From NCBI RefSeq assembly GCF_041248615.1, contig NZ_CP158425.1: a DNA stretch of 64,000 bases; one strand, written 5' to 3'. The stretch comes from Escherichia coli (GTDB lineage Bacteria > Pseudomonadota > Gammaproteobacteria > Enterobacterales > Enterobacteriaceae). Below, in pieces: positions 35,746 through 52,840 of this stretch. The translations under genes and the position numbers were made by a program. Within the stretch, counting starts at the first letter, position 1, and each line of letters starts with the position of its first letter. The notes beneath the pieces were generated by a model that ran no database searches, was not told where the DNA came from, and was given only the letters and a program-made list of their open reading frames with translations.

Positions 35746-38136
35746 TTATGTTTGAGGGAATTCTATAGCAAATGTGGCCGTGCCAGATTGACCACTTACA
35801 GCGGGAGTAACGGGATACGTGCGCTCTTCACCATTACCAAGATCCAGTGACAGCGATTTAGTTTCACCAGGCTGGACCGTAACTCCGGCAACCGTAACGC
35901 CGAACTGGGCATTTTTCTGAACAGTCAGGGTTCCGTTTAACTGTCCGGTAATGATAGAACCGTCCTGACGCCGCAACACACTGGTTCGGATGATGGCCAG
36001 CGGCGTGTTGTCCGTTGCTTTCAGTGCTACGGCTGTGGCCAGCGTCTTGAGATTATCCAGCATAATCAGATTCGCAGGCTGGTAGGTAAAATTAAGCGTT
36101 TTAGTGGTCCGGTTACCTGATTCGTCAATAGCCAGTGCCTCCAGATGATACATCTGTCCCGATTCGTCAGTGTTGGGGAAGATTCTGGGGTATTCCGGAA
36201 TAAAGACATCCTTGGATAACGGCGTGAATGCCAGGGTGACCTTTTCAGAGTTAGGTCCACCAGCGAGCTGAAGCGATGTCAGGGAAGCATCCCCAGAGGC
36301 ATCAGTAACGCTTATGCGAAGGTTCTCAAGCCCTTTAACCAGTTTTCCTTCTGCGTCTGCGCCATTAAAACTGAACGCGATAACCGGAAGCGTTGAGTCA
36401 ATTTTCAGCGGTGCATTAAGCGTTTTGGTTCCGGTGTTTCCAACAAGATCCGTGGCAGAGACGCTAACCACCGTATAATCCCCGTCCGGTAGACCAGCGT
36501 ATGAGAAGGTGGCGTTTTTGGTTTTATAATCGCTTTCACTGACGGTCACAGGCTTCAGCGTGAAAGGTTCCCCCCGGGCATTTTTAAGGGTGGCTTCGAA
36601 AACTTTGGTATCCCAGTAGCTGATGTTCCAGGCGTTGACGCGATCATTATCGGTGGCCGTCATAGTGATTGTCTTGGAGGCCTTGTTTACCTGAGCGACA
36701 TTAACCACCGGTGGGTTGTTATCCCAGATAACCGTAAAATTACCAGCAAGCGCATCGAATATGCTGTCACCATCTTTTCCCGAGTAAAGGTGCAGATACT
36801 CAAATCCTTTGTCACTGGTGTAGTTGAAGTTAACCGTCATCTCGCATGAACTTTGTCCGATAGGTATAGTGCAGAACCAGGCTGCATTTTTTACCGTTCT
36901 GAACTTTTGCACGTATGGTCGGGGTTCAGCGGTTACCTTTATGCGGCTAATGGTGGCGGTTTTAACGCTGATTGAGGCCTGAGTTAACCACTCACTGGTA
37001 TCACTCCGGTACATCTCTTTAGCCACTATCTTCGGGGCTATTTCCATCGCCGGGGCTGGAGTGAAGTTGAGGGAGTTATGATGAATTCGTCTTACTCCTC
37101 CTGCCAGAGTCTGGAATTCATGATAAGTATCCCCCACATTGGGATATATGTATTTGAAAGTATAAATATTATAAGTGCTATCGGACGTCTGGAAATTCGA
37201 GTCCGCCCAGCCATATTTGGAACCGTTAACAGCAGTAAAGTCACTTTTTTTCCTTAATACCCGTACGGAAATAGGGTTCTGGAAGACGGTCATGCCAGAC
37301 TGATAAGTGACCCATGATCCGGTAGTGGCGTCCTGCACCTGGATGATATCGTCAGGCTTAACCCGATCAATTACGCTTCGGCGGCTTAGTTCGATCCTGT
37401 TTCCCGCTTTGTCATAAAGGTAGATCCCCACTTTATATTCAGAGCGGTTTTCCGGTGCCAGGGCATTGCTGCTTGCGTCGGCGACTTGAACGGTTACGCT
37501 ACCTTCCACTGTATTAATTTCCGCTGGCTTTTTACGCTCCACTCCAGCGGCATCGGTTATGAAATATTCAGCATTAGCAAGCCCGGAACCTTTATCACTC
37601 AGTCCATTAAAGACCAGTGCCTGGACGCTGGCGTACTGCATACCGGCTGGTACTGAAGTGAAGATCGCTTCGCTGCCAAAGTTCCACCCGTTTCTCGTAT
37701 AACTTATGGTACCCGTTGCCGGAGGCGTTCGGTCAATTGCAAGCGGGTAATCCTGCCGGGAGACCTCCTTCCCTTGCAAGTCGGTAATCACCTCTCTGAG
37801 GGTGAAGCTATCTTCTCCCATCGCTGGTACGGTCAGAGTCTTGCCGTAATAATCAAAGCCTGTCGAAGATGTGGTACGGTCATCTACGGTAACCAGGCTG
37901 CTTTTCGTGCTCCAGATGAGGCTCCCGTCACTTTTCAGCAGACTGAGCGTAATATAACGGTCCAGACCGGAAATAACGGCAACGTCAAAGCTCGTTACCG
38001 GATTAATCCATACGGATGCAGGCGATACGGTCTTTTTAACGTTCAGGGTATCTTTAAAGCTGAATTCTGCGATTTCAGCGGAAGCTCCTGCGCTGAAACC
38101 TGCAAATGCAATAAGCAGGGCTAGTTTGATTTTCAT
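35746..38136 (-). CDS. Secreted large beta-rich (Ig-like repeat?) protein, paralog A
   Basis: AGGAGA RBS before the ATG at 38136. Signal peptide MKIKLALLIAFAGFSAGASA. Shares GLDRY, YYGK.L.PA.GE, GLENLRI, GGP and EYPRIFPN blocks with 43689-46109 and 50384-52840. Confidence 0.7.
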   Translation of the reverse strand: MKIKLALLIAFAGFSAGASAEIAEFSFKDTLNVKKTVSPASVWINPVTSFDVAVISGLDRYITLSLLKSDGSLIWSTKSSLVTVDDRTTSSTGFDYYGKTLTVPAMGEDSFTLREVITDLQGKEVSRQDYPLAIDRTPPATGTISYTRNGWNFGSEAIFTSVPAGMQYASVQALVFNGLSDKGSGLANAEYFITDAAGVERKKPAEINTVEGSVTVQVADASSNALAPENRSEYKVGIYLYDKAGNRIELSRRSVIDRVKPDDIIQVQDATTGSWVTYQSGMTVFQNPISVRVLRKKSDFTAVNGSKYGWADSNFQTSDSTYNIYTFKYIYPNVGDTYHEFQTLAGGVRRIHHNSLNFTPAPAMEIAPKIVAKEMYRSDTSEWLTQASISVKTATISRIKVTAEPRPYVQKFRTVKNAAWFCTIPIGQSSCEMTVNFNYTSDKGFEYLHLYSGKDGDSIFDALAGNFTVIWDNNPPVVNVAQVNKASKTITMTATDNDRVNAWNISYWDTKVFEATLKNARGEPFTLKPVTVSESDYKTKNATFSYAGLPDGDYTVVSVSATDLVGNTGTKTLNAPLKIDSTLPVIAFSFNGADAEGKLVKGLENLRISVTDASGDASLTSLQLAGGPNSEKVTLAFTPLSKDVFIPEYPRIFPNTDESGQMYHLEALAIDESGNRTTKTLNFTYQPANLIMLDNLKTLATAVALKATDNTPLAIIRTSVLRRQDGSIITGQLNGTLTVQKNAQFGVTVAGVTVQPGETKSLSLDLGNGEERTYPVTPAVSGQSGTATFAIEFPQT

Positions 38137-38269
38137 GGGTTGTCTCCTGATCAGGTTCCCCATGATACTTTTTCAGTGTTCGAGATCTTTTCGGGAAAAT
38201 AGCTAATTTTAATGTTTTTCTTTTCTGCCCGGCGGGACTTGTTTTGTTTACGTAAATGCAAAAATACAA

Positions 38270-38284
38270 GAAAAGTTACTTTTT
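38270..38284. promoter_or_regulatory. Palindromic operator-like site, copy 9 (upstream of paralog A)
   Basis: GAAAAGTTACTTTTT followed by GATAG, as in copy 12. Confidence 0.5.
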
Positions 38285-38539
38285 GATAGGGTTAAAATTA
38301 GGTTTTCCCAATTTCCAGAAGCAAGCGAAAGCAGAACTAGCTTAATAGCCATTAAAAACGCCATGCCTATTGATAAATAAAGCTCATTACATTTAATGAT
38401 TAGAGCATTTAAAACTGAATTAGCGAAAGAATTTCGGTTAGCTTTTTATTGCATGAGTGAAACAGTATTAATAATCCGGAGCCATCAGAACGTACTCTAA
38501 AGACTCCGGTATACAGATATCTTGCCAGTAAAAATGGCC

Positions 38540-38791
38540 TTACTCCTCATCATCCCCCAGCGCTTTTTTGATGGCGCGGCGGCGGGCTGCATCACCTACA
38601 CGATATCCGACTGAATATACGTCATTCAACCGGCGCAGAATAAGATTTATTTCCTCATCCTGAATGTAGGCAGGTAAACACAGAACTACGTCGCCATCTT
38701 CATCATAGACTCGAACAACTTCCTTCTGCCCATCTCGCTCGCGAATAATCTGGACATGCTGAACCCTGGTGTAATCTGGGATTACGCTCAT
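38540..38791 (-). CDS. Small hypothetical protein
   Basis: 83-aa ORF, co-directional. Confidence 0.5.
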   Translation of the reverse strand: MSVIPDYTRVQHVQIIRERDGQKEVVRVYDEDGDVVLCLPAYIQDEEINLILRRLNDVYSVGYRVGDAARRRAIKKALGDDEE

Positions 38792-38823
38792 TTTAAATAT
38801 CTCTCTTTAATTGTTGTTACCAG

Positions 38824-39027
38824 TTAGCTATAAGCCGGTTTATTCAGGTACTCAGTGTTCTGCACAGCAATCGCCTGTTCGTGGATCATTAACACTGCTG
38901 GGCGGGCTTTAAGGCGCTTGCTGGTGAGAAAACGCTTCACTTCTTTAAGTTCGCTGCCAGCCGACAGCATATTGAAGACATGCTGTTTGAGACTGTTGTT
39001 ATTTTTGGCCACTTGTTTCTCCATCAT
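38824..39027 (-). CDS. Small hypothetical protein
   Basis: The start ATG at 39027/39024 overlaps the end of the upstream gene. No strong RBS. Confidence 0.35.
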   Translation of the reverse strand: MMEKQVAKNNNSLKQHVFNMLSAGSELKEVKRFLTSKRLKARPAVLMIHEQAIAVQNTEYLNKPAYS

Positions 39028-39256
39028 CTTTGTACATGGTTGTGTCGGGCTGGCCTGCCAGATCACACACGTTATCCATATGCTTTTGGACCCAGTCTGT
39101 TAGACCCAGGCCTTCGGCCTTTGCCTGATTGACGTAACGCAGTTTCCGATCAGGGGTAACCCGCATCTGTAGTTGTGCCGTCGCTGGAACCGCCTCTTTC
39201 AGGGCGTTAAGGCCCCTCTGATCACGGGCCTGATTTGATGGTTTACCGTTTGGCAT
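38999..39256 (-). CDS. Probable ribbon-helix-helix DNA-binding protein (paralog of 13145-13501)
   Basis: See the alignment given under 13145-13501. Confidence 0.5.
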   Translation of the reverse strand: MPNGKPSNQARDQRGLNALKEAVPATAQLQMRVTPDRKLRYVNQAKAEGLGLTDWVQKHMDNVCDLAGQPDTTMYKDDGETSGQK

Positions 39257-39680
39257 CTGAGGTATCGCTCTCCCGGCGAGCGGTGGACGACTCTAATTCT
39301 TTTGCGATTGCTTTATCTACGGCATCCAGCTGCATAGCAAACTTGATTTCAAGCGAACAGCGTAATGCCTTCAGGGCGCGTTCTTTGGTGCTGTATTGTG
39401 GTATGCCGTTCTGGCTACCATTCATGCCTCGCATGCGGCGGGAGGTTGCATCGACAACCTCTCCCTCTTCCCGTGTGCCGTGAACCGTAGTTCCGCTCCA
39501 TGTCGGATAAACAGTGCCAGTGGCGGTGTTGAAGCTCCAGCCGTTTTGGTATTCCCCCGAGACCTCTGGTACGGGCATATCGCGTTCAACGCTATAGTCA
39601 GACCAGCGTAAAGCGCGGTTTATTCTGGCCTGTGCCACCAGCTCATCATAGGCGGCTTGTTCTTTTTTATTCATCGCCAT
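39243..39680 (-). CDS. Hypothetical protein
   Basis: AAGGAG upstream; 145 aa. Confidence 0.5.
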   Translation of the reverse strand: MAMNKKEQAAYDELVAQARINRALRWSDYSVERDMPVPEVSGEYQNGWSFNTATGTVYPTWSGTTVHGTREEGEVVDATSRRMRGMNGSQNGIPQYSTKERALKALRCSLEIKFAMQLDAVDKAIAKELESSTARRESDTSDAKR

Positions 39681-39783
39681 TTAGGGCAATCTCCTTAAAG
39701 GGGAATTAGGTGTTATATCGGTACGTAAGTGCTTTTCAGGCCTAATCTCTGACAAGGCCTGATGTGCCAGACTGCCGTTGCAT

Positions 39784-40308
39784 TCACCGTTTTATGGCGG
39801 TTGACTGAGCCTCATTAAGAGCCGCAATTAGTTCAGGCGAAGTCGGCTCCAGATTTTTGGAAGCGTTCAGCAGCTCCTTAAGTGAAGAGATTTCCTTTGG
39901 CTCTACCTGGTTTGCTTCAGGAGCCGTTTTTTGAACTTCATCCAGAGTACGCTGTGCACCGTTATCCAGCACCAGCACACCCCCAGCACGAATTTCTGAA
40001 ATGGTGCGCACCGTATACATCATTTTATCCCAGACACGGCTACCAACCTCGATCCCGGAATCAGCTACTTTTTTTTCATTATGCTTTTGAAAAATTTCTT
40101 CTAACCATGTGGTGAAGCGCTTTCCAAAAGTATTGGCGGCTAAAGAAGTGCAGGAATAAACCTGTTCGACCTGTTTTGTTCCATTTTTATCAGTGAATGT
40201 AATGAGACCGATTCGTCCACTGTTAACAGTGTAAAAGCGAGGTTGAAAGCCAGCTTTGAGAAGGTTTTCAATAGCTGAAAAAAAATCTTTTTTGAGCATC
40301 GGTTTCAA
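39784..40308 (-). CDS. Hypothetical protein
   Basis: TTG start with AAGGA 8 nt upstream (alternative ATG at 40299); 174 aa. Confidence 0.45.
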   Translation of the reverse strand: MKPMLKKDFFSAIENLLKAGFQPRFYTVNSGRIGLITFTDKNGTKQVEQVYSCTSLAANTFGKRFTTWLEEIFQKHNEKKVADSGIEVGSRVWDKMMYTVRTISEIRAGGVLVLDNGAQRTLDEVQKTAPEANQVEPKEISSLKELLNASKNLEPTSPELIAALNEAQSTAIKR

Positions 40309-40566
40309 GATGGTTTTCCTTTTATGCCCGGTGCCGCCGGGACGGTGGCATTAAATATACGCCATGTAAGTAAATTAATTTTTACCCATTTGATTGTCAA
40401 TACAAACAAAAAATAAACCATGTTTATTATTTTACCAGCGATGCTATTTTAAAGTCCGTCTAAAATAAAAAACCAAAAAGTTAAATTTGAAGCCATCCTT
40501 CCTAAATTCATTTCTTGCGCATATTAGCCCCTGCTTTAAGTATATAATTTTTGAAAAAGTTGTCTG

Positions 40567-40579
40567 GAGGTTATTAGCT
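40567..40579 (+). promoter_or_regulatory. Conserved promoter-like motif (GGAGGTTATTAGC), rightward copy
   Basis: About 50 nt upstream of the ATG at 40629. TTTGAA lies 16 nt upstream of TATTAG. Confidence 0.45.
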
Positions 40580-40628
40580 CGTGCATCTGGATTGTTAATA
40601 TAAAGCCAACACAGAAAAGGAAAACAAA

Positions 40629-41473: not shown

Positions 41474-42235
41474 ATGCAAATCTCAACTGAAGTTCTGAAC
41501 GTCTTATCTCGCTGCCGTGCTGAAGGGAACTTTCTTTTCCTGGCCGACCAGCTCGACCGCAGCATTTATGTTAAGACAAACAAAGTGCTGGAAGCTGCCG
41601 GTGGCAAATGGAACCGAAAAGAGCAGGCACATATTTTTACGGCGGATGCAGCTGAGCGTATCGAGCAAATCATTCTGACAGGTTCGGTCGACATCCCACG
41701 TGATTTGTTCAATTTCTTCCCTACCCCTGAGAATTTAGTCACAGATATGGTTCTACGCGCTGAACCAGCTGCCGGGGAACGTGTTCTGGAGCCTGAGTTT
41801 GGTGATGGCCGCATTCTGAAAGCCTTAAAACTGGCGGCTCCGGATGCATTGATTACCGGGATCGAATTGAACGATGAGCGATTCCTTGCAGTGAAGAACG
41901 ATAGTGTCCTTAGCACAGGGGCCGAGCTGGTGCATACCGACTTTCTTGGGTACCAGCCCGATGAAACTTTTGATGTTATCGTTATGAATCCACCATTCCT
42001 TAAACGCTCTGACGTTAAACATGTCATGCATGCCATCGCAATGCTCGCTAAGCGAGGTCGCTTACAGGCCATTCTGTCAGCTGGGGTATTGTTCCGGGAA
42101 GACACACTGACAAAAGCGCTCAGGGAGCGAGTCAAACAACTTGGCGGACAAATTTCGCCTCTTCCGGATGATACATTTAGGGAGTCCGGAACAAAGGTCA
42201 AAACAGCCCGCCTTGAAATTGATCTTCGCCGCTAA
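41474..42235 (+). CDS. N6-adenine-type DNA methyltransferase (NPPF motif), orphan
   Basis: Motif I VLEPEFGDGRIL and motif IV FDVIVMNPPF. ATG at 41474 is preceded by TGGAG. Paralogous to the C-terminal half of the IS-disrupted gene at 54842-55913. Confidence 0.7.
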   Translation: MQISTEVLNVLSRCRAEGNFLFLADQLDRSIYVKTNKVLEAAGGKWNRKEQAHIFTADAAERIEQIILTGSVDIPRDLFNFFPTPENLVTDMVLRAEPAAGERVLEPEFGDGRILKALKLAAPDALITGIELNDERFLAVKNDSVLSTGAELVHTDFLGYQPDETFDVIVMNPPFLKRSDVKHVMHAIAMLAKRGRLQAILSAGVLFREDTLTKALRERVKQLGGQISPLPDDTFRESGTKVKTARLEIDLRR

Positions 42236-43688: not shown

Positions 43689-46109
43689 ATGAAACATCTC
43701 GCTTTTATTACTGCTGTAGCCGGACTCGGTATGTCTGTTCAGGCCCCAGCTCAGATATATGAATCGGCCTTTAAGGACACGAACGGTATTGAGATCCACG
43801 CCCCGTCTTCTCGTCTTATGCTTAATCCGGCATCACCGGTAACTTTGACACTTATTTCAGGTCTTGATCGTTTCGTTAATGTCAAAGTCACGAAAGACAC
43901 TGGAACTGTCATTCTTAATACTACGACTACACGGACGGGTGTATCAGACCGACTAACAGCTGCTGACGGTAGTGAGTTCTACGGCAAAAAAGTAACTTTG
44001 CCTGCTTTGGGTGAAGGCAAATTTGTCGTTCAGATAAACGTGTTAGATCTCAATCAGAAGCCTGTAGCGACCTATAACTATAACTGGCTAATTGATGTCA
44101 CCCCTCCAGCGGCAAATGCTCTTACCGCTAATACTGGTTCTGGCTCTACCGCTGGTGACGTGTGGAAGCTTGGATTAGAGGCAACGGGGCAGTATGACTT
44201 CACCTCTTCGGGCGTAAGTGATGCAAATGGTATTGATAAGGGCCTAATATATATTTACAGGCAGGACGGTAGCCTCTACAGCACTACACAGATGCAGTAT
44301 GACGTATCCGGCCAAAAGATGTACCACACTTACTCTAAGAATTCAGTTAAGGGAACCGGAATACCAGACAGCAACCTGGATGAAGACTTTACTGCAAAAG
44401 TTGTTATCTTCGATAACGCAGGTAATAGCCGAACGCTGCCAACTCAAAAATTTCGCTACGACAACACGCTGGGTGAGATGACACTGTGGGCCGTTCATGA
44501 TCCAAATACGTCTTCCAGCGTCGTACCCGGGGTTTCTAATTATCCGGCTTACAAAGCCGGTATGGTCGTTAACGAAAACCCTATTCGATTAGTCTACCGG
44601 ATCCCAAAATCTAACTACCGTGCTTATTCAGAAGGTGGGCTTCAGTTCATCAATCAATATTCCGCCCCCAAAGAGATAGCTGTAGACAGCACTTATGCTT
44701 ATGTTGAAATGACTCTTCCCTATGGCTCAATTAATGGGGATATGGCTCGTATGGCGAACTTTGGCCAGTGGGGAGGGTATTATCCGTCATACAGCCTCGT
44801 TCTAAACCCATCTGCAAACCAAACGCCTGCATTTGCGGGTACCTGGGTAGATTTCCTCGATGATAAGGGGAACTGGGTTAAGTGGAAGGATTTTGAGAGT
44901 GTGGCTTCATCACGACTGCCAATTAAAATTTCCCGACTTCGTTTTAACGTTGAAGCCCGGCCCTTTGCACAGGAGATCGGCGGTAAGGCGACCTGCACCA
45001 TTCCGGCAGGAAAAACCTCGTGTGAAGCGCCTGAGACGTTTGATATGGCCTTGGGTACCCAGGGCTACAATAGAATCCTTTACTTCGTTCGCAGCATCAG
45101 CAATCCCATTTTGCGGTCTGAGCAATGGATTATGACACGCTGGAACAATAAACAACTGCCGGTAATAAACTCGATATCATATGACGAGACTAACAAGCAG
45201 CTGGATGTACTGGCGTCACTTGAAGGCGATGGTAACTGGTTCGACTCGGTCTCATTGAGGGAATTTTATCTTTCCGATAAGAACACCGGTACCCGGATGT
45301 CACCAACAGGCGTAATCAAATCTCGTATCTCAGGTAACTACACGATTGCTTATGATTTATCCCGTCAGTCTGAAGGAAAATACAACGTTGAGGTCAACAT
45401 CAGGGACTTCTTCCAGAACCAGACCAATAAAACTTTCGGAGAAATTGCTCTGGATAACACTCCTCCGACAGTGGCCATAACATTCGACGGAAAGCCGGTA
45501 AAAGACGATACGGTAGTGTACGGCCTGGAGAACCTCAGGATCGCTCTGGCAGATAATCTGACAACCCCGAGGATAACCCGTCTTCAGCTCGTAGGTGGCC
45601 CCACAGCTGATAACGTTGAGCTTACGTGGTCACCGGCAGGCAAAGATACATACATGCCTGAGTATCCGAGGCTGTTCCCAAATTTCGAACCATCTGAAAA
45701 TTATTCAATTAGCGTAACAGTTGCCGATAGTCAGTCGAATACCAAAACCTATACTCAGAAGTTCAGTTATCTACCGAATAACCTTGTGCAGTTACATAAT
45801 CTACGCACATTGTCGGTCAGTTCACCTCTCAAAACGACAGATGGCGTACCACTTGCGTACCTGTCCACTAACGTTCTGCGTAAGACAAATGGAGAAATTG
45901 CTAAAGGGGTCCAGAACGCAACGCTGACTGTGCGGAAGGATGCAGCCTTCGGTATTAAATTTAATGGGGCACAGGCGGCTCCAGGCGAGTCAGTTGAGGT
46001 GCAAATAGATATGGGCCAGGGGGATAATCTTCTGTTACCCGTTTATCCTTCCGAAAATGGGAAAGTTGGCACCTCAGAATTCATGATTCAGATCGACGAG
46101 TTGAAGTAA
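43689..46109 (+). CDS. Secreted large beta-rich (Ig-like repeat?) protein, paralog B
   Basis: AGGGGA RBS. Signal peptide MKHLAFITAVAGLGMSVQAPA. Long collinear similarity to 50384-52840, for example RFNVEARPFAQEIGGKATCTIPAGKTSC against RFNVQARPYDQKITGGATCSIPAGSTTC. Confidence 0.7.
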   Translation: MKHLAFITAVAGLGMSVQAPAQIYESAFKDTNGIEIHAPSSRLMLNPASPVTLTLISGLDRFVNVKVTKDTGTVILNTTTTRTGVSDRLTAADGSEFYGKKVTLPALGEGKFVVQINVLDLNQKPVATYNYNWLIDVTPPAANALTANTGSGSTAGDVWKLGLEATGQYDFTSSGVSDANGIDKGLIYIYRQDGSLYSTTQMQYDVSGQKMYHTYSKNSVKGTGIPDSNLDEDFTAKVVIFDNAGNSRTLPTQKFRYDNTLGEMTLWAVHDPNTSSSVVPGVSNYPAYKAGMVVNENPIRLVYRIPKSNYRAYSEGGLQFINQYSAPKEIAVDSTYAYVEMTLPYGSINGDMARMANFGQWGGYYPSYSLVLNPSANQTPAFAGTWVDFLDDKGNWVKWKDFESVASSRLPIKISRLRFNVEARPFAQEIGGKATCTIPAGKTSCEAPETFDMALGTQGYNRILYFVRSISNPILRSEQWIMTRWNNKQLPVINSISYDETNKQLDVLASLEGDGNWFDSVSLREFYLSDKNTGTRMSPTGVIKSRISGNYTIAYDLSRQSEGKYNVEVNIRDFFQNQTNKTFGEIALDNTPPTVAITFDGKPVKDDTVVYGLENLRIALADNLTTPRITRLQLVGGPTADNVELTWSPAGKDTYMPEYPRLFPNFEPSENYSISVTVADSQSNTKTYTQKFSYLPNNLVQLHNLRTLSVSSPLKTTDGVPLAYLSTNVLRKTNGEIAKGVQNATLTVRKDAAFGIKFNGAQAAPGESVEVQIDMGQGDNLLLPVYPSENGKVGTSEFMIQIDELK

Positions 46110-46210: not shown

Positions 46211-46225
46211 GAAAAGTTACTTTAA
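46211..46225. promoter_or_regulatory. Palindromic operator-like site, copy 10 (at the edge of the iteron array)
   Basis: GAAAAGTTACTTTAA. Confidence 0.45.
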
Positions 46226-46276: not shown

Positions 46277-48112
46277 GACAATGGGAGTGAGTGTCGAACC
46301 CCTTGAGTAAGGATACTTGGTAAATATACAGCCCCGGGGATTCTCTTCCTTCAACCGGGGATGACAACGGGAGTGAGTCCGGCAACTCACACCTGTTGTC
46401 ACTTCTCTGACATATCGTCATACGAGCTTACTCAAGCGCATCCACAAAGATGGGATCGTTTTGAATCTAAACTGGTACTGGTTAGCCAGTCACTTGCATC
46501 TACTCCCCCGTCGATATTTAAGTGACAATTGTAGTGATCTGCAATACTGGTGTCTCAGAAACACTGACGACGGTAGAGACTCAATACCCTAACCCCTGAC
46601 AACAGAAGTGAGCTTAGAGGTGTTACGCTGCTGTCACCTAATGCTTGGGAATTGCCTGACTCACAACCATTGTCATCCGGAGCTACTGATTAACGTTGAA
46701 CCGCTGGACTTTAATGACAGTGGTAGTGATGGATAGGCTCATTTCCATTGTCGTCATTTTATCGGACAAGCCTCTTCGTCCTACAGGTTTAAGCTGACAA
46801 TGGTAGTGATTGGATGATCTCACTACTGTTGTCACTCAGTTCTTTGAGCGGACCCTTCCCTCGGTTGGTCGGCATTAACAACGGTAGTGACTCGATTGGC
46901 TCACTGCCATTGTCATCGTGTAAATGACGTACCTTATCAGCTCAGCTGAAAGCAATGACAACGGTAGTGACTCTAATTGCTCACTGCCATTGTCGTCGTG
47001 TCTATTGAGAGCCTTATCAGTGCACCTGAAAAGCAATGACAACGGTAGTGATTCTAATGGCTCACTACCGTTGTCACCGTGTGTATTGAGAGGATGGTCC
47101 ACCTAACTGGACGTATATGACAATGGTAGTGACTTTAATAGCTCACTACCATTGTCGGTGTGTGAATTGAGAGGATGAGCAGCTCAGCTGTACGTCCATG
47201 ACAATGGTAATGACTTAATGAGCTCACTACCGTTGTCACCCTGTTAATTAAGAGGCTCATCTGCTCTTCTGGAAGGCTATGACAACGGAAGTGACTTGCT
47301 GGGCTCACTGCCATTGTCGCCGTATGAATTGAGAGGATCATCCGCTCTTCTGGATGGCAATGACAACGGTAATGACTTAATAGGCTCACTACCATTGTCA
47401 CCCTGTGAATTGAGAGGATGATCTGCTTAACCAGACGGCCATGACAACGGTAGTGACTTTCTGGGCTCAATACCGTTGTCACCCTGTGAGTTAAGAGGTT
47501 GACCCGCTCTACTGGACGGCCATGACAACGGTAGTCACTTTCTGGGCTCACTACCGTTGTCACCCTGTGAGTTAAGAGGTTGACCCGCTCTACTGGACGG
47601 CCATGACAACGGTAGTCACTTTCTGGGCTCACTACCGTTGTCGCCATATAGAATGAGAGGAGCATCAGCTCAACTGAACGGCAATGACTACAGTAATGAG
47701 CTGGATGAAGCATAACCATTGACATCTGGCCCAACCGGAAGCCGTATTCGCCAATCCAATCGAGATTCACAATGGCCGTGACTCGCCGCATTAAGTTCCG
47801 GTGTCCTCCCAAAGCTGAACGCACACTCGGAGGACAATGACAATGCCAGTAAGGTACACATCATTACCATTGTCACTATAGCTACCAGAGAAGCCGGGAT
47901 TTGAATGTCGATGGTAGTGAGTGGGTCAACTCACTGCCATTGTCACCCCGTTACGATATTTTCCGTTGGATGTACTGGCCAATGAAGTAAAGCGTAGAAA
48001 CCGGGTGTTAACAGGTGACTCAGGAGAAAGCGTTGAATTTCGCAATCTCGATCTACATAGGGTGGTAGAGAACAATGACAACGGTAATGACTTTTGACTC
48101 ATTACCGTTGAC
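46277..48112. repeat. Array of about 20 inverted iteron pairs (RepA-site palindromes) downstream of repA
   Basis: Each unit is GACAAYGGTAGTGA, 8-10 nt, then TCACTRCCRTTGTC. The arm sequence equals the direct iterons at 49496-49593 and 49919-50017. Confidence 0.85.
46796..47685. repeat. Core of the array: 11 tandem units of 80-81 bp
   Basis: Left arms start at 46796, 46877, 46957, 47038, 47119, 47200, 47281, 47362, 47443, 47524 and 47605. The spacers between pairs are also conserved. Confidence 0.9.
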
Positions 48113-48187
48113 GTGAAAGAGCGGGCTGGGACTAACGAAAATCGAAGAAGTAATTTAGCACCCGGAGCCTAAACCGCCGGGTTAACT

Positions 48188-49276
48188 TTAGCTGGCGTTG
48201 CTGTTCTTTTTCTGGCTTCGAAGACTACGAATATAGCGCAGTTCTTCAGCGGTTAAATCATGGACGGTAAGAACATCATCGCCGTCAATCGGGTCAGCTG
48301 GTGGGCATAACTCACCTTCTAAAACAGAAGACCCTGAGTTCTCTTCTTCATCTTCAACCACTTCTAAAGGAGGCTGAGTATTGTTCAAATTCAGATCGGG
48401 ATCCCGCTTATGAATCTGGAAGTATACTTTTCCGTCTTTCTTAATTTCGGTGTACTTGAGGTATCCTATCGATGCCAACTCTTCAAGAGCCTTTCTCACG
48501 GTAGCATTCTGACTATTTGCTCGTGTTTTGAGGTTCAGACGATTTTTCAGCCGAGTAAGGGATATCGGTATAGGATTTGGCGGTAATGACTCTATGAACG
48601 TATAGAGAGCCTGGGCGCTTTCCTTCTTGGCCAACTCCTTAATTGCCTTCAGCTGCATCAAAACCTTATGATCGTATTGATAGAGCTCGAAAATCTTAGG
48701 ATCAACCTGAAGGACAACCTGATCTGATTCCGGGTCTAACAGGGCAGACTGTACCAGATGCGTTGTATAGACTTTGGACGAGTTATTACTGGTGAACGAC
48801 AAGGTAACGGATGCTAACCTGCGTAAGGAGGCGTCTATACGTTTTCTGGACGCTGTAGATGAGCGATAATTTTCAGGCGTACATAGCTTGAGGAATTCAG
48901 TGAATTTTAAGCTTATCGTGTCATTGTTAATCGGATGATTGGCATAGGTTCGAATGATGCCCATCCACGTCTTAAAATCTACTGACATATTAAGACGCTC
49001 ACCGACAATTGAAATATTGGTGAACCCCTCGCTCTCCATTAAAGAGAGCGTCTGTAACTCTTTCGTTGCGTCAAAGCCAACCGTTTTATATTCCCGATTT
49101 TGACGCCCCACACTCTTTGGTGATGGGACGAACAGCCCGAGCCGCATCAAAGCAATAGACTGCACCGTACGGTTGCTGTTAGGACGCAAAATGATGTCTT
49201 TACCTGATTCTTTCTCTCTAACAGAGAAAGCCCTGGTGACCAGGTCCTGCTGCTCAGTATCTTTCTCTTTAGTCAT
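48188..49276 (-). CDS. repA: Replication initiator RepA, P1/RepFIB type, with an acidic C-terminal extension
   Basis: [28 protein letters not shown] and [31 protein letters not shown] align with the P1 RepA blocks [28 protein letters not shown] and [31 protein letters not shown] (from memory). Iterons flank the gene on both sides. Confidence 0.85.
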   Translation of the reverse strand: [362 protein letters not shown]

Positions 49277-49339
49277 AATTAGTTATCACTGAATGTGTAA
49301 ACAGATTGGTGAATAGTAAGCCCCAGCGAACTCTATGTC

Positions 49340-49490
49340 ACTGGATGGATCATTGTGATGATCCATATCTGTGCATAAGTTCTACCTAAAAAAACGACTC
49401 CACTCATTAAAACTTGGCAAAAACTCTTTGCATACAATGACCTGCAACTCTTATCAACAACGGATCAGATCAAGTTAAAAAGATCTAATG
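49340..49490. promoter_or_regulatory. GATC-rich repA promoter/origin-proximal region
   Basis: GATC at 49348, 49360, 49463, 49468 and 49482. Palindrome GGATCAT-TGTG-ATGATCC at 49347-49364. AT-rich. Confidence 0.5.
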
Positions 49491-49495
49491 AAAAG

Positions 49496-49593
49496 TCACT
49501 ACTATTGTCGCTCTGATCACTACTGATGTCAAAAAACTCATTACCAACGTTATAATAATCACTACTAATGTCAAAATAATCACTACTGTTGTC
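49496..49593. repeat. Origin iteron set 1: five direct repeats at exact 21-bp spacing
   Basis: TCACTACTATTGTC (49496), TCACTACTGATGTC (49517), TCATTACCAACGTT (49538), TCACTACTAATGTC (49559), TCACTACTGTTGTC (49580). Confidence 0.85.
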
Positions 49594-49796
49594 ACTGATC
49601 ACGTCTCAGGCCTTGTGCCGTCTGGCCTGGAGGCAGCGGGGATCTCTTTTGATCTATCAGGAACACTAAGGTACTAATTATTGGAACTACCTTGTGGAAA
49701 ATGGGGATAAATAAATGCTTAGTTCTTATACAGGTCTCAACTTGCCTCCCTGATAAAAACTGTCGTCAAAGCTAAATCACAGCCACAGGCATTTTC

Positions 49797-49805
49797 GGTG
49801 GATAA
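49797..49805. promoter_or_regulatory. DnaA-box-like sequence
   Basis: GGTGGATAA is the reverse complement of TTATCCACC, an 8/9 match to TTATCCACA. It lies between the two iteron sets. Confidence 0.3.
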
Positions 49806-49918
49806 ATTTTTGAGAAATAGAAGCATACATGCAGACTCGTGTCGCAAGTAATTGAAAGTAATGATTTATTTAAATAATGCGAGTCACCTTACCTCACAGT
49901 GGAAGTTTAAGTCTAACC

Positions 49919-50017
49919 TCACTACCATTGTCACTTAAAATCATTACCAACGTCGAAATAGTCTCTACCATTGTCTTTTAAGTCACTCCCGTTGTCACTT
50001 ATGTCGCTACTGTTGTC
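49919..50017. repeat. Origin iteron set 2: five direct repeats at 21-22-bp spacing
   Basis: TCACTACCATTGTC (49919), TCATTACCAACGTC (49941), TCTCTACCATTGTC (49962), TCACTCCCGTTGTC (49983), TCGCTACTGTTGTC (50004). Confidence 0.85.
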
Positions 50018-50245
50018 AGTGACAATGCTCCAGCCCAGTAACCATGCGGCCTACAGCGTACCGGGATCTTCTTTGTACTCTCTGGCACCTTTGGGATCAT
50101 TTATTGGATCTACATGAGGGATAAAATCTTTTGACGATTTCGTAGTGCAGTTATACCAGCGACTTAGCAAGACAAAAGCTGCAATTTAGTGACGAGTTAC
50201 TAGTCTGCCCAACAAGAGCAATGCAGAGAAGATATGTGGTGAAAT

Positions 50246-50279
50246 GACCATGGTAGTGAGTCTAATCACTACCATGGTC
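50246..50279. repeat. Isolated inverted iteron pair
   Basis: GACCATGGTAGTGA (50246-50259), 6 nt, then TCACTACCATGGTC (50266-50279). Confidence 0.8.
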
Positions 50280-50383
50280 CGCAGTAAGCGTTACTTACGC
50301 AATGAACGTCGGACTGATTTGCAACAACATGGGCTACGGCGCATCAGAAGGCGGCCGTTGTGCTTCAGCAAAACAGCCCTGCT

Positions 50384-52840
50384 TTATTTTAATTCTTCAA
50401 TGTTAATCATGAACTCAGATCTGCCAGTAAGGCCGGATACAGCAGGGAAAATAGGAAAGCTACGGCTGTCCCCGAGCCCCAAATCCAGTTGAAGCTCTTT
50501 GCTTTCACCTGGCATCGCAGAAACGCCATTTACAGTCACGCCGAATGCAGCGTCCTTACGGACAGTAAGCACTGCGTCCTGAAGCCCTGTAGCGATTGAA
50601 CCATCCTTTTTACGCAGCTGGCTGGCATACAGAACAGCCAGAGCAGTATTGTCAGATGTTTTGAGAGAAGCATTGACAGCTAAGGTTTTCAGATTCTCTA
50701 GCCTGACGAGATTGTTTGGAAGGTAGTTAAATTCGACTGAGCTTTCTTTAACGTTGTTCATCTCATCTTTGGCCTGAACTGTGAGAGTGTATGTTTCGCC
50801 TTCATTAAGAGACGGAAAGATCTTGGGATAATTAGGTGCATACAGGTTGTTTCCCAGATTCACCCAAGACAATTCCACCGCATCAGAAACAGGGCCACCG
50901 CGAAGAGTCATACGGCTTAAGGATGGTTTAGTTAGAGCATCGGTGAGCTGTATACGGACGTTCTCCAGCCCATATACTGTTACGTTTTTGCTGATCGGTT
51001 TTCCTTCGTAGCTAATACTTACAGATGGTGCTGTATTATCAACGACAACTGTTTGATAAGGGAGGTTACCGGTATTGTTGAATGTATCTTGGGCATTAAT
51101 CACCACGTTATAACTGCCTTCTGGTACCTCTTTCATGTTGAACTCATACGTGTAGTTCCCAGACGCCATATTTCTACCTGTTTGTTTGCCGGTTACGCTT
51201 ATTTCTGCGTTGTTACGGTTTTTATCTGACAACCAAACTCGATTTACATAAACATGGTCGAAATATGAACCATCTCCAGGTTGATTCACGTAAACCTGGA
51301 GAATGTTGGTGGTTTCATTGTAATCAAATCCAGTGACGGAGGGACCCAGTGTATGCCAGGCTATATTCTCCCATATAGGGGCAAAGAAGGTTGCTTCGGT
51401 GGTTGACCTTACTTCATAGCCACTATGAAGATAACCGGTAGTGCCATTTATAATATCCTGGGGCAAAGAGACGGTACAGGTTGTTGAGCCAGCTGGAATA
51501 CTGCATGTTGCTCCGCCAGTGATTTTTTGATCATATGGCCTGGCCTGTACATTGAATCGGATATTAGTAAGTTTTATAGGCATATCAGATGCCTTGAACA
51601 GGTTCCAGTTTACGCTGTTGAACCATGTTCCATCAGCCTTTTGTCGTTCTATGGGTGAACTTCCCCAAGCCGGACTCTTTACAGAGGCAGGATCCCAGTT
51701 GAGCCAGCTGGCATACTGACCAAGATCTCCTCCAGACCATTGATATGTATTCACAGGTCTATAGTAGTTTCCATCTAAGGCACCCTGTGGCAGCTTAACT
51801 TCCACGTAGACATAGGTGGCATCTTCGGAAAGGACCTGTACTCCGCCATAGTTATTGGTAATGCTCATGCCACCATTTCGATATGGCTTCCAGTTAGTTC
51901 TTGGGATACGTATAACCAACTTGTAGGGGTTTTCCAGCACTGTAAGGCCTCGTTTAAACGGGACGTATCCCGAAGAAATGCCGGGTACAACACTGGTGCT
52001 TACACGTGAGTCATGAACTGCAAATGGCGTAAATTCTCCCATTTGATCGTCATATAAAAACCGCTGGGGAGGAATGTTAAGCGTATTTCCTGCCAGGTCC
52101 GTAACGATGAAATTGAAGGTGAATTCTTCATCAAGATCACTTGAGGGCATGCCAGCCTGGGTGTTCATATCTTTAATCCACGGATAGAACGCACGTTTAT
52201 TGGCTGTGTCATAACTCAGGTTATTGTCGGAGACCACAGAACCATTACTTCGTTTAATGACAAGACGGATCTTGTCAATTCCACTAGCATCCTCAATACC
52301 GTCTGCAAATATAGAAAACTGGCCACTACCGCCTCGGCCCAACTCCCAAAGTGGCCCAGAAAGTACCATGTCGTAACCTGCGTTTTGACTCGGATAAATA
52401 CTCTTATAGCGTGGAGGAGTTGTATCAACGATGAAATGATAAGTAGATGTGCTCACTACAGTCTGGCGAATATCCAGAGTTTCATTGACTACAGTAAAGG
52501 TCCCTTCTCCGAGCGCCGGTAGAACCATATCCTTTCCATAGTATTCTGTTCCATCGGCAGCAACGATACGATCTGCAACGCTCGTTTTGGTCGAGACGGA
52601 GGAATACATAACCTTTTTATCGCTGTCTCGTGTGACCGTCACTCGCTCGTACCGATCAAGACCCGATATCAAGTTCAGAGTCAAAACACCAGCGGGATTA
52701 AGATATGTTTGTGTTGCAGGTTTGATATTCCGAACAGCCTTATTGGTATCTGTAAATGAGTAGCTAAATACCTGAGCATGTGCCGAAGATACAGTAGCAA
52801 GGGCAGTTGCAACCATGCAGCCAATTAGAGTTTTACGCAT
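50384..52840 (-). CDS. Secreted large beta-rich (Ig-like repeat?) protein, paralog C
   Basis: GGAG RBS. Signal peptide MRKTLIGCMVATALATVSSAHA. C-terminus SEFMINIEELK against SEFMIQIDELK in paralog B. Confidence 0.7.
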   Translation of the reverse strand: MRKTLIGCMVATALATVSSAHAQVFSYSFTDTNKAVRNIKPATQTYLNPAGVLTLNLISGLDRYERVTVTRDSDKKVMYSSVSTKTSVADRIVAADGTEYYGKDMVLPALGEGTFTVVNETLDIRQTVVSTSTYHFIVDTTPPRYKSIYPSQNAGYDMVLSGPLWELGRGGSGQFSIFADGIEDASGIDKIRLVIKRSNGSVVSDNNLSYDTANKRAFYPWIKDMNTQAGMPSSDLDEEFTFNFIVTDLAGNTLNIPPQRFLYDDQMGEFTPFAVHDSRVSTSVVPGISSGYVPFKRGLTVLENPYKLVIRIPRTNWKPYRNGGMSITNNYGGVQVLSEDATYVYVEVKLPQGALDGNYYRPVNTYQWSGGDLGQYASWLNWDPASVKSPAWGSSPIERQKADGTWFNSVNWNLFKASDMPIKLTNIRFNVQARPYDQKITGGATCSIPAGSTTCTVSLPQDIINGTTGYLHSGYEVRSTTEATFFAPIWENIAWHTLGPSVTGFDYNETTNILQVYVNQPGDGSYFDHVYVNRVWLSDKNRNNAEISVTGKQTGRNMASGNYTYEFNMKEVPEGSYNVVINAQDTFNNTGNLPYQTVVVDNTAPSVSISYEGKPISKNVTVYGLENVRIQLTDALTKPSLSRMTLRGGPVSDAVELSWVNLGNNLYAPNYPKIFPSLNEGETYTLTVQAKDEMNNVKESSVEFNYLPNNLVRLENLKTLAVNASLKTSDNTALAVLYASQLRKKDGSIATGLQDAVLTVRKDAAFGVTVNGVSAMPGESKELQLDLGLGDSRSFPIFPAVSGLTGRSEFMINIEELK

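What the first reader, a model, noticed from the sequence alone, without database searches (positions are those of the whole stretch)
35746..52840. Three divergent paralogs of an ~810-aa secreted protein bracket the replicon
The ORFs at 35746-38136 (-), 43689-46109 (+) and 50384-52840 (-) all begin with a cleavable-looking signal peptide. They are collinear over their whole length, sharing FKDT/FTDT, GLDR[YF], YYGK, LPA[LM]GEG, D.TPP, RFNV.ARP, C[TS]IPAG..[ST]C, DNT.P.V, YGLENLRI, GGP, [EN]YP[RK][IL]FP, NL..L.NLKTLA and AAFG[VI] blocks. Paralogs B and C converge on the repA/iteron module, ending at 46109 and 50384. Nucleotide identity is low, so the duplications are old and all three copies have stayed intact. 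A and C have the GAAAAGTWACTTTTC palindrome followed by GATAG upstream. I cannot place the family. Its composition is beta-rich and resembles bacterial Ig-like adhesins. A surface role is possible (recipient recognition, mating-pair stabilisation, exclusion or an adhesin), but that is speculation.
Basis: partly seen in the sequence, partly recalled or inferred. Interest (0 to 1): 0.65.

Follow-up and report, generated by a model that had tools for sequence, protein, structure and literature searches.

The report
Three Ig-like plasmid mating proteins
The three genes are intact, old copies of a known family of exported, immunoglobulin-like proteins that help large resistance plasmids transfer between bacteria; they are uncharacterised on this plasmid type (IncHI2) but are not a new kind of protein.

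Summary
The window is IncHI2 plasmid backbone, 100% identical to E. coli p14408_M1. ORFs A (35746-38136 -), B (43689-46109 +) and C (50384-52840 -) are collinear 796-818-aa paralogs, 28-42% identical. Each has a Sec-type signal peptide. B and C converge on repHI2 and its iterons.

The family can be placed. All three carry Pfam DUF4165 + Big_3_2 + Big_3_3, the architecture of RSP2 from the IncHI1 plasmid R27. Published work shows RSP2 is secreted, binds flagella and conjugative pili, and raises conjugation about 100-fold in liquid at 25 C.

- A is RSP2's closest relative (39% identity) but not its orthologue: plasmid p8025 carries an A-type gene and an RSP2 remnant together.
- B and C have 82-86% identical counterparts in IncHI1. 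There B is a remnant, and in R27 C is cut by IS30.
- IncHI plasmids therefore share four paralogue types and keep different subsets.
- Within IncHI2, dN/dS is 0-0.10.
- IncC and pCAR1 carry the module inside their tra operons; in IncC it is shown to be fused to an RSP-like C-terminal part. An Aeromonas plasmid has four copies next to an rsp homologue.

The upstream palindrome is real but occurs plasmid-wide.

Verdict: new, uncharacterised members of a known kind.

The parts
35746..38136 (-). Paralogue A, 796 aa (RefSeq WP_000694550, 'Ig-like domain-containing protein'). It is the closest IncHI2 relative of R27 RSP2.
   Evidence: ORF and annotation. Pfam DUF4165 18-136, Big_3_2 138-257, Big_3_3 540-696. 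39% identity to RSP2 over 788 aa, E 1e-174. AF2 pLDDT 85.1. dN/dS 0.05.
43689..46109 (+). Paralogue B, 806 aa (WP_000681217). In IncHI1 (R27, pHCM1) it survives only as a 198-aa C-terminal remnant. It is intact in p8025.
   Evidence: 86% identity to the R27 remnant. 75% identity to the p8025 copy. 9 synonymous and 0 nonsynonymous differences from pEho7-1.
50384..52840 (-). Paralogue C, 818 aa (WP_001572417). It is 82% identical to the 818-aa pHCM1 protein. In R27 that gene is interrupted by IS30.
   Evidence: AF2 pLDDT 83.8. dN/dS 0.10.
38077..38136 (-). Signal peptide of A (MKIKLALLIAFAGFSAGASA | E)
   Evidence: The model has low pLDDT over residues 1-19.
43689..43751 (+). Signal peptide of B (MKHLAFITAVAGLGMSVQAPA | Q)
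52775..52840 (-). Signal peptide of C (MRKTLIGCMVATALATVSSAHA | Q)
   Evidence: The model has low pLDDT over residues 1-22.
36844..36873 (-). Invariant C-x8-C loop of A (CTIPIGQSSC). These are the only two cysteines of the mature protein, so a disulfide is likely.
   Evidence: The same loop, with the preceding VEPRxYxQ motif, occurs in RSP.
44994..45023 (+). C-x8-C loop of B (CTIPAGKTSC)
51476..51505 (-). C-x8-C loop of C (CSIPAGSTTC)
35749..36393 (-). C-terminal third of A (domain 6, flexible linker, domain 7). This is the part best conserved among the paralogues.
   Evidence: Per-domain identity is 38-57% here against 15-22% in domains 2-5. Low-confidence linker at 697-705.
45459..46106 (+). 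C-terminal third of B (domain 6, linker, domain 7)
50387..51034 (-). C-terminal third of C (domain 6, linker, domain 7)
38270..38289 (.). Palindrome GAAAAGTTACTTTTT followed by GATAG, 136 nt upstream of the A start codon
52995..53078 (.). Two palindrome copies (52995-53009 and 53060-73, the second followed by GATAG). They lie 157 and 222 nt upstream of C, in the divergent intergenic region shared with the gene at 53213-53839.
43987..44001 (.). Palindrome copy inside the B coding sequence (codons for YGKKVTL). B has no copy upstream. The position inside B is kept in p8025.
46211..46225 (.). Palindrome copy 104 nt downstream of the B stop codon. A copy sits at the equivalent place in R27 and p8025.
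46277..50279 (.). Context, not part of the family: the RepHI2 replicon bracketed by B and C. It comprises repHI2 (48188-49276, minus strand) and iteron arrays on both sides.

Best explanation
A, B and C are three anciently diverged members of the RSP2 family of plasmid 'Big' proteins. They act as accessory surface components of the IncHI (MOBH relaxase, F-type mating-pair-formation) conjugation system.

The proposed path has three steps.
1. Each precursor crosses the inner membrane through Sec. The signal peptide is removed and the single C-x8-C pair is oxidised in the periplasm. This step is inferred from the sequence.
2. The roughly 85-kDa chain of about seven Ig-like beta-sandwich domains reaches the cell exterior only when the plasmid's type IV secretion and pilus machinery and the large partner protein RSP are present. 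This is shown for R27 RSP2 and inferred here. The rsp gene is present on this same plasmid.
3. Outside the cell the proteins decorate H-pili and flagella. They lower motility and stabilise donor-recipient contact, which raises transfer mainly in liquid and at low temperature. This is shown for RSP2 and, for conjugation at 25 C, for the fused IncA/C homologue. It is inferred here.

The conserved C-terminal third (domain 6, linker, domain 7) is the likely common docking part. The strongly diverged domains 1-5 probably give each paralogue its own target. That last point is inference.
For: Family membership:
- All three have the same three Pfam domains at the same positions as RSP2 (RSP2 domains in PMC8730810).
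- Full-length homology to RSP2 is 39% for A, 32% for B and 35% for C.
- In the neighbour-joining tree the A clade is sister to the RSP2 clade.

Export:
- Every family member inspected, and RSP itself, has a canonical Sec signal peptide. For the short forms with a single C-x8-C pair, for the long forms and for RSP, the cysteine positions leave an even number in the mature chain.
- There is no transmembrane segment, lipobox or beta-barrel.

Link to the conjugation system:
- The host plasmid is MOBH/MPF_F and carries rsp in its Tra2 region.
- 2741 of the 3058 plasmid records with a family member are typed conjugative.
- Seven of the eight plasmids inspected in detail are MOBH/MPF_F. The eighth, the Aeromonas plasmid, is typed MOBH and mobilizable, with no mating-pair type given.
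- In IncC the gene lies between traA and dsbC-traC. In pCAR1 it lies directly after traL-E-K-B-V.

Link to RSP:
- In the IncC 1828-aa protein, residues 1 to about 810 are the family module and residues 822-1819 align to RSP 372-1405 (E 1e-63).
- In Aeromonas pSS332-218k, four tandem family genes are followed after 17 nt by a full-length RSP homologue (E 3e-132).
- RSP residues 162-545 match family domains 4-6 (hhalign probability 96%, E 1.4e-9).
- RSP co-precipitates RSP2 (PMC8730810).

Function of characterised relatives:
- Deleting rsp2 lowers liquid mating about 2 logs. RSP2 needs RSP, TrhA and TrhH to reach the medium, and binds flagella and pili.
- The pKAZ3 long form is secreted and is needed for transfer at 25 C but not at 37 C.

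The genes are in use: dN/dS is 0.05, 0 and 0.10 for A, B and C, at or below the value of every neighbouring gene compared (0.10-0.58).
Against: - No experiment exists for A, B or C. All function is transferred from relatives that are 25-39% identical.
- A is not the orthologue of rsp2. B and C are further still from it.
- In the model plasmid R27, C is cut by IS30 and B is a remnant, yet R27 conjugates. B and C are therefore dispensable there.
- The three genes lie outside the tra regions, next to the replicon.
- The published type IV secretion export model sits uneasily with a Sec signal peptide. The route across the outer membrane is unknown.
- The pKAZ3 homologue did not affect motility.
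Confidence: 0.6

Rival explanations
1. They are general adhesins or biofilm and colonisation factors. They help the host cell stick to surfaces, other cells or animal tissue, with no specific part in DNA transfer.
For: - The models are chains of Ig-like domains, like bacterial adhesins. There is weak sequence and fold similarity to the SiiE BIg domains.
- The genes lie outside the tra operons of IncHI2.
- R27 transfers with only one intact member.
Against: - The family is found almost entirely on conjugative plasmids, and every plasmid inspected carries a MOBH relaxase (and the typing in the locus calls).
- In IncC and pCAR1 the gene sits inside the mating-pair-formation operon.
- The module is fused or adjacent to RSP, which is required for R27 conjugation.
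- The two relatives that were tested have conjugation phenotypes.
Confidence: 0.15
2. They protect or restrict the mating apparatus rather than promote mating. By coating pili they would block pilus-specific phages, or they would act in surface exclusion between cells that carry related plasmids. The paralogue diversity would come from an arms race.
For: - RSP2 binds the pilus.
- A-type proteins evolve faster than B or C. Against p8025, dN is 0.34 for A, 0.20 for B and 0.13 for C. A-type identities range from 99% down to 53% among related plasmids.
- Different plasmid lineages keep different paralogue sets.
Against: - Deleting rsp2, or the pKAZ3 homologue, lowers transfer from the donor. Loss of an exclusion or shielding factor should not do that.
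- None of the three matches a PADLOC defence model.
- Within IncHI2 the genes are under purifying selection, not diversifying selection.
Confidence: 0.08
3. They stay in the periplasm or at the outer membrane as structural or assembly parts of the transfer channel. Their appearance in culture supernatant would then be a by-product of shed pili or vesicles.
For: - They have a Sec signal peptide and a disulfide pair.
- A disulfide isomerase gene is linked to the family: dsbC lies directly downstream in IncC, and htdT sits in the IncHI Tra2 region.
- RSP was detected in the periplasm (PMC6764697).
- RSP pulled down TrhH, a homologue of the outer-membrane-complex protein TraH.
Against: - Immunogold labelling placed RSP2 on flagella and pili outside the cell. 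It is an abundant band in the cell-free secretome.
- Members can be lost (B in IncHI1, C in R27) without abolishing transfer.
Confidence: 0.07
4. They are redundant leftovers of old duplications with no present function.
For: IncHI1 has lost B, and R27 has also lost C. p8025 carries only an internally deleted RSP2-type gene.
Against: - All three are intact in most IncHI2 records. 850 records cover at least 80% of the 18.5-kb region, and those listed are annotated with three Ig-like genes.
- dN/dS is 0-0.10, with 49 synonymous against 8 nonsynonymous changes over 7.3 kb.
Confidence: 0.03

Closest known systems
RSP2 (ORF R0055, 794 aa) of the IncHI1 plasmid R27 (Huttener et al. 2022, mSphere, PMC8730810)
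   Same: - Same length class and the same DUF4165 + Big + Big_3 layout.
- Collinear homology over the whole protein: 39% for A, 32% for B, 35% for C.
- Signal peptide, the C-x8-C loop and the conserved C-terminal third.
- Encoded in the same 15-kb neighbourhood between the two tra regions, on a MOBH/MPF_F plasmid that also has rsp.
   Different: - None of the three is its orthologue. p8025 has an A-type gene and an RSP2-type remnant side by side, and the gene slots differ.
- RSP2-type genes at 80% identity or more occur in about 291 plasmid records and not in IncHI2. This agrees with the paper's statement that IncHI2 lacks rsp2, although that survey used nucleotide BLAST and could not see the paralogues.
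- Domain 1 of RSP2 resembles C (58%) more than A (33%).
The roughly 1830-aa Big protein of IncA/C plasmids (ALG87338.1 of pKAZ3; WP_000606835 in pSH111_166) and the 1982-aa protein of pCAR1
   Same: The N-terminal 800 aa or so are the same module, 25-34% identical, with the same three Pfam domains. The pKAZ3 protein is secreted and needed for conjugation at 25 C.
   Different: - The IncC protein carries a further 1000 aa or so that are homologous to the C-terminal part of RSP. The extra C-terminal region of the pCAR1 protein was not compared with RSP.
- There is a single copy, encoded inside the tra operon.
- These long forms make a separate major branch of the tree.
RSP (R0009, 1432 aa), the IncHI conjugal transfer protein (Huttener et al. 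2019, PLoS Genet, PMC6764697)
   Same: - It has a Sec signal peptide.
- A central part (residues 162-545) is homologous to family domains 4-6, including the VEPRxYxQ motif and the C-x8-C loop.
- It is secreted, binds flagella and pili, and is required for conjugation.
   Different: - It has no DUF4165 or Big_3_2 domains.
- It has a long C-terminal part of roughly 900 aa that A, B and C lack.
- It is encoded within Tra2.
Giant BIg-repeat adhesins such as Salmonella SiiE
   Same: Beta-sandwich BIg domains. There is a weak profile match to SiiE (E 9e-5) and a fold match (TM 0.41 on the target).
   Different: SiiE is a type I secretion substrate with a C-terminal signal and 53 near-identical repeats. 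A, B and C have an N-terminal Sec signal, about seven dissimilar domains and no repeat structure.
PrgB (aggregation substance) of Enterococcus pCF10, and TraN/TrhN of F-like systems. These are functional analogues only.
   Same: They are plasmid-encoded surface proteins that stabilise mating pairs. The Ig-like domains of PrgB appear among the fold matches (8beg).
   Different: There is no sequence homology. PrgB is anchored to the cell wall and TraN is an outer-membrane protein. No TraN domain was found in A, B or C.

Membership tests
RSP2 family (plasmid DUF4165/Big proteins) | Domain layout DUF4165 (N-terminal), then Big_3_2, then Big_3_3 at about residues 540-700, in a protein of about 800 aa | tested here: met
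   All three domains score above the Pfam gathering cut-offs in A, B and C, at matching positions. RSP2 has DUF4165 at 23-142, a Big domain at 143-254 and Big_3 at 537-693.
RSP2 family (plasmid DUF4165/Big proteins) | Full-length sequence homology to R27 RSP2 | tested here: met
   A: 39% over 788 aa, E 1e-174. B: 32%, E 3e-106. C: 35%, E 2e-121.
RSP2 family (plasmid DUF4165/Big proteins) | Encoded on a MOBH/MPF_F conjugative plasmid that also encodes RSP | tested here: met
   p14408_M1 is typed IncHI2A, MOBH, MPF_F. Its rsp gene is at record positions 24976-29280.
RSP2 family (plasmid DUF4165/Big proteins) | Export signal | tested here: met
   A rule-based check finds a Sec signal peptide in A, B and C, in RSP2 and in 10 other members. 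SignalP was not available.
RSP2 family (plasmid DUF4165/Big proteins) | Release to the medium dependent on RSP, TrhA and TrhH; binding to flagella and pili; a conjugation defect on deletion | not testable with these tools
   Known only for R27 RSP2 and, in part, for the pKAZ3 homologue.
rsp2 orthologue (same gene as R27 R0055) | One-to-one orthology: no co-occurrence with a true rsp2 gene, and the same gene slot | tested here: not met
   p8025 carries an A-type gene (61% to A, 38% to RSP2) together with an RSP2-type remnant (92% to RSP2). A lies next to the hyp156/RelE genes, whereas RSP2 lies next to the B remnant. The best IncHI2 match to RSP2 is 38%.
RSP (R0009) family | Homology over the C-terminal part of RSP (residues from about 520 to 1432) | tested here: not met
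   Only family domains 4-6 match RSP, at residues 162-545. A, B and C end at about 800 aa and lack the part that the IncC long form shares with RSP.
Type I-secreted giant BIg/RTX adhesins (SiiE type) | No N-terminal signal peptide; a C-terminal secretion signal or RTX repeats; many near-identical repeats | tested here: not met
   A Sec signal peptide is present. Pfam finds no RTX or repeat domains. Similarity to SiiE is limited to about one BIg domain by sequence and a few by fold.
Type V (autotransporter, intimin/invasin) adhesins | A beta-barrel translocator or anchor domain | tested here: not met
   Pfam finds no barrel domain. The AF2 models consist only of sandwich domains.
TraN/TrhN mating-pair stabilisation proteins | TraN domain, cysteine-rich outer-membrane protein | tested here: not met
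   There is no TraN match and only two cysteines in each mature protein. trhN is a separate gene on the plasmid.
Anti-phage defence system components | Match to a PADLOC model | tested here: not met
   No family matched for any of the three at E up to 0.01.

The most novel reading that the evidence does not exclude
IncHI plasmids may run a split, modular adhesin. RSP would be the common stalk. The roughly 800-aa paralogues (types A, B, C and RSP2) would be interchangeable heads. Each head would dock through its conserved C-terminal domains 6-7 and present its diverged domains 1-5 to a different target, such as flagella, pili or the surfaces of different recipients. IncC plasmids, and by architecture pCAR1, would have the same device as one fused polypeptide. 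Different plasmid lineages keeping different subsets of heads would then tune where and with whom they mate. The plasmid-wide palindrome would tie A and C, but not B, into a shared backbone regulon.
Probability: 0.2. Interest if true: 0.6.

Novelty: new member of a known kind. Interest (0 to 1): 0.4.

Why it matters
IncHI2 plasmids are major carriers of mcr-1 and other resistance genes. RSP-type surface proteins are already being tested as vaccine and nanobody targets (PMC11268884).

The literature states that IncHI2 lacks rsp2. That is true for the gene itself, but these plasmids carry three intact, selected paralogues of the same family. Work on R27 has sampled only one of four paralogue types, because R27 has lost B and C. 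Any plan to block IncHI transfer through these proteins has to allow for likely redundancy and for the low identity between types.

The fusion with RSP in IncC, and the adjacency to an rsp homologue in Aeromonas, give independent genomic support for the reported RSP-RSP2 interaction. They also suggest which part of the protein does the docking.

The signal peptides present in every member inspected call for a second look at the proposed type IV export route.

Tried and rejected
- **A as the rsp2 orthologue.** My first reading was that A is a fast-evolving orthologue of rsp2 that the literature had missed. It had the best identity (39%), the same neighbourhood and the same strand. I rejected it after finding p8025, which carries both types, and after mapping the gene slots.
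- **Second homologue search.** The search run with the three-sequence alignment returned the same 19 proteins as the search with A alone, so it added nothing.
- **NCBIfam.** It has no model for the family, and none for RSP or RSP2.
- **PADLOC.** No match.
- **PDB by sequence.** Only a weak SiiE match.
- **Promoter scans.** No consensus sigma-70 promoter was found upstream of A or B. The only match near C is on the opposite strand.
- **Fixed promoter next to the palindrome.** Aligning the sequence downstream of each palindrome copy showed no promoter-like element at a fixed distance by eye.
- **Palindrome in the literature.** A full-text search for the palindrome string found nothing relevant. 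A search for IncHI2 transposon-mutagenesis work on conjugation also found nothing useful.
- **Context of two distant members.** It showed only unannotated plasmid backbone.
Full report
**1. What the window is**

The 18.5-kb stretch around the finding is 100% identical to many IncHI2 plasmids. The whole window corresponds to positions 174074-238073 of E. coli plasmid p14408_M1 (NZ_LT599829), typed IncHI2A, MOBH relaxase, F-type mating-pair formation. RefSeq annotates the three ORFs only as 'Ig-like domain-containing protein'. The gene between B and C is repHI2.

**2. Check of the observation**

- ORFs of 796, 806 and 818 aa lie at the stated coordinates.
- They align end to end. A/B and A/C are 28% identical and B/C 42%.
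- Most of the listed motifs are present. Several are exact only in B and C.
- Each N-terminus has a basic n-region, a hydrophobic core and an AXA cleavage site after residue 20-22. None has a lipobox or a later membrane-spanning segment.
- Each mature protein has exactly two cysteines, in an invariant C-x8-C loop. That fits an oxidising compartment.
- DNA similarity among the three genes is undetectable apart from 77 nt between B and C.
- B and C end on either side of repHI2 and its iteron arrays.
- The palindrome followed by GATAG sits 136 nt upstream of A and 222 nt upstream of C, with a second copy 157 nt upstream of C.

**3. Placing the family**

Pfam finds DUF4165, Big_3_2 and Big_3_3 in all three proteins, well above threshold and at matching positions. 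The literature describes exactly this layout for RSP2, the 794-aa product of ORF R0055 of the IncHI1 plasmid R27 (PMC8730810).

That paper reports the following for RSP2:
- It is found in the cell-free secretome.
- It is pulled down with the 155-kDa Big protein RSP.
- It needs RSP, the pilin TrhA and TrhH to reach the medium.
- It labels flagella and conjugative pili by immunogold.
- It reduces motility.
- Its deletion lowers liquid mating at 25 C by about two logs.

The paper also shows that an 1843-aa IncA/C protein with the same domains is secreted and is needed for transfer at 25 C but not at 37 C.

I located rsp2 in R27 at 57498-59882. A is 39% identical to it over 788 residues (E 1e-174). 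B and C are 32% and 35% identical.

**4. The paralogues are old, and there are four types**

C is 82% identical to an 818-aa protein of pHCM1. In R27 that gene is cut by IS30. B is 86% identical to a 198-aa C-terminal remnant in R27 and pHCM1. The order C, rep, B is shared.

I first took A to be a fast-evolving orthologue of rsp2. That does not hold. Plasmid p8025 (RepHI1B type, MOBH/MPF_F) carries all of the following together:
- an A-type gene (61% to A, 38% to RSP2) directly upstream of a C-type gene;
- an intact B-type gene;
- an internally deleted RSP2-type gene (92% to RSP2) in the RSP2 slot next to B.

The gene slots of A and RSP2 also differ. IncHI backbones therefore share four paralogue types:
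- IncHI2 keeps A, B and C.
- pHCM1 keeps RSP2 and C.
- R27 keeps only RSP2 intact.

RSP2-type genes at 80% identity or more occur in about 291 plasmid records, and the best IncHI2 match to RSP2 is 38%. The published statement that IncHI2 lacks rsp2 is therefore correct for the gene itself. That survey was a nucleotide BLAST listing hits of 85% or more, so it could not see the paralogues.

A neighbour-joining tree of 168 family modules, without support values, puts the A clade next to the RSP2 clade and B next to C. The four copies of the Klebsiella plasmid pKp6001 form a clade of their own. The roughly 1830-aa long forms sit on a separate major branch.

**5. The genes are in use**

Between the window and the Enterobacter IncHI2 plasmid pEho7-1 the counts are:

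| Gene | Synonymous differences | Nonsynonymous differences | dN/dS |
|---|---|---|---|
| A | 31 | 5 | 0.05 |
| B | 9 | 0 | 0 |
| C | 9 | 3 | 0.10 |

These values are at or below those of every neighbouring backbone gene compared (0.10-0.58). At greater distance, against p8025, A changes faster: dN is 0.34 for A, 0.20 for B and 0.13 for C.

**6. Structure**

AlphaFold2 models of C (pLDDT 83.8) and A (pLDDT 85.1) show the same plan:
- a disordered signal peptide;
- about seven beta-sandwich domains;
- a short low-confidence linker (residues 718-723 in C, 697-705 in A) before the last domain.

Per-domain identities show that the C-terminal third (domain 6, linker, domain 7) is the best conserved part among paralogues, at 38-57%. 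Domains 2-5 fall to 15-22% between A and B or C.

**7. Links to the transfer machinery and to RSP**

- 3058 PLSDB plasmid records carry a family member, and 2741 of them are typed conjugative.
- Seven of the eight plasmids I examined in detail are MOBH with F-type mating-pair genes. The eighth, from Aeromonas, is typed MOBH and mobilizable.
- In IncC the single 1828-aa member lies between traA and dsbC-traC. In pCAR1 a 1982-aa member follows traL-E-K-B-V.
- In the IncC protein, residues 1 to about 810 are the family module. Residues 822-1819 align with RSP residues 372-1405 (E 1e-63). The long form is therefore the family module fused to the RSP C-terminal part.
- In the Aeromonas caviae plasmid pSS332-218k, four tandem 787-803-aa members are followed after 17 nt by a full-length RSP homologue (27% over 1427 aa, E 3e-132).
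- A profile of the family matches RSP residues 162-545, covering domains 4-6 with the VEPRxYxQ motif and the C-x8-C loop (hhalign probability 96%, E 1.4e-9).
- The plasmid of this window has rsp in Tra2.

Fusion, adjacency and shared descent support the reported physical RSP-RSP2 interaction on independent grounds. They make a joint function with RSP the most likely one for A, B and C.

**8. Export route**

RSP, RSP2, the long forms and every short member inspected begin with a Sec-type signal peptide. For most members, RSP included, the cysteine positions leave an even number in the mature chain.

The published model has RSP leaving through the type IV system by way of a periplasmic intermediate (PMC6764697). 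The sequences fit a two-step route:
1. Sec carries the precursor to the periplasm, where it is oxidised. A DsbC-type gene is linked: htdT in IncHI, and dsbC directly downstream in IncC.
2. A pilus-dependent step takes the protein across the outer membrane.

The second step is inferred.

**9. The palindrome**

The core AAAGTWACTTT occurs 15 times in the window, where shuffles predict about 0.2 matches to the longer 15-nt pattern and essentially none to the core. Eleven copies are intergenic and lie 91-222 nt upstream of the first gene of a minus-strand gene or gene group.

Copy numbers elsewhere:

| Locus | Copies |
|---|---|
| Tra2 half of the same plasmid (50 kb) | 13, several inside genes |
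| R27, rep/rsp2 stretch (30 kb) | 7 |
| R27, Tra2 stretch (45 kb) | 13 |
| pKp6001 (32 kb) | 12 |
| p8025 (42 kb) | 9 |
| IncC, pCAR1, Aeromonas loci | 0 |

In pKp6001 three of the four paralogues have a copy 30-80 nt upstream. B has none upstream. It has one inside the gene and one just after it, and both positions are conserved in p8025.

The motif looks like the operator of a regulator that acts across the IncHI backbone. It is not a private feature of A and C. I found no description of it in the searchable literature.

**10. Verdict**

The family is known and partly characterised, so these are new, uncharacterised members of a known kind.

Points worth carrying forward:
- the four-type paralogue picture, with different subsets kept in different lineages;
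- the fusion and adjacency with RSP;
- the signal peptides found in every member inspected;
- the backbone-wide palindrome.

Noticed in passing
window 486, 5388, 10437, 10563, 17556, 21076, 23807, 28856, 33068, 38272, 43989, 46213, 52997, 53062, 61203 (11-mer start positions); also L012, L003, L011, L006, L007: The palindrome AAAGTWACTTT, often extended to GAAAAGTWACTTTTC, is strongly over-represented on every IncHI-type backbone examined, at roughly one copy per 3-5 kb. It is absent from the IncC, pCAR1 and Aeromonas loci. In the window 11 of 15 copies lie 91-222 nt upstream of the first gene of a gene or gene group. It looks like the operator of an undescribed backbone-wide regulator. No literature match was found.
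   Followed up: partly
window 18121-19438 and 55910-57228: Two IS3-family copies, 98.3% identical and in direct orientation, bracket 36.5 kb that holds all three paralogues and the RepHI2 replicon. The right-hand copy splits a DUF4942 gene: 54842-55840 and 57221-57847 both match the single 558-aa R27 protein.
   Followed up: partly
L003 (R27) 3926-6085, 10630-11479; L002 (pHCM1): The model plasmid R27 has lost two family members. The C-type gene is cut by IS30 and the B-type gene is reduced to a C-terminal remnant. Experiments on R27 therefore test only one of the four paralogue types.
   Followed up: yes
L010 (Aeromonas caviae pSS332-218k) 4110-17906: Four tandem family genes, separated by about 10 nt, are followed by a 1399-aa RSP homologue. 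All five look like one operon, downstream of traD and a DUF4400 gene.
   Followed up: yes
L003 12499-14883 (RSP2) compared with window C and A: Domain 1 (DUF4165) of RSP2 is 58% identical to that of C but only 33% to that of A. Domains 2, 3 and 5 of RSP2 are closer to A. This suggests either domain exchange between paralogues or faster change of domain 1 in A.
   Followed up: partly
window 46786-47737: The replicon has about 12 copies of an 81-bp unit, each holding an inverted pair of iteron-like sequences (TGACAACGGTAGTGA ... TCACTACCGTTGTCA). The mechanical ORF at 47135-47824 lies wholly inside this array and is probably not a gene.
   Followed up: no
L006 (Klebsiella pKp6001) 9828-17313 and 25439-27871: This plasmid has its own expansion of the family. 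Three tandem 800-801-aa copies are 72-74% identical to each other. A fourth copy of 810 aa, 52% identical to them, lies across parAB. The copies form a clade separate from the IncHI1 and IncHI2 types.
   Followed up: partly
window 29492-30742, 41474-42235, 54842-55840, 59628-60440: Several orphan DNA methyltransferase genes, one of them Dam-family, are scattered through this non-tra backbone region with no adjacent restriction gene annotated.
   Followed up: no
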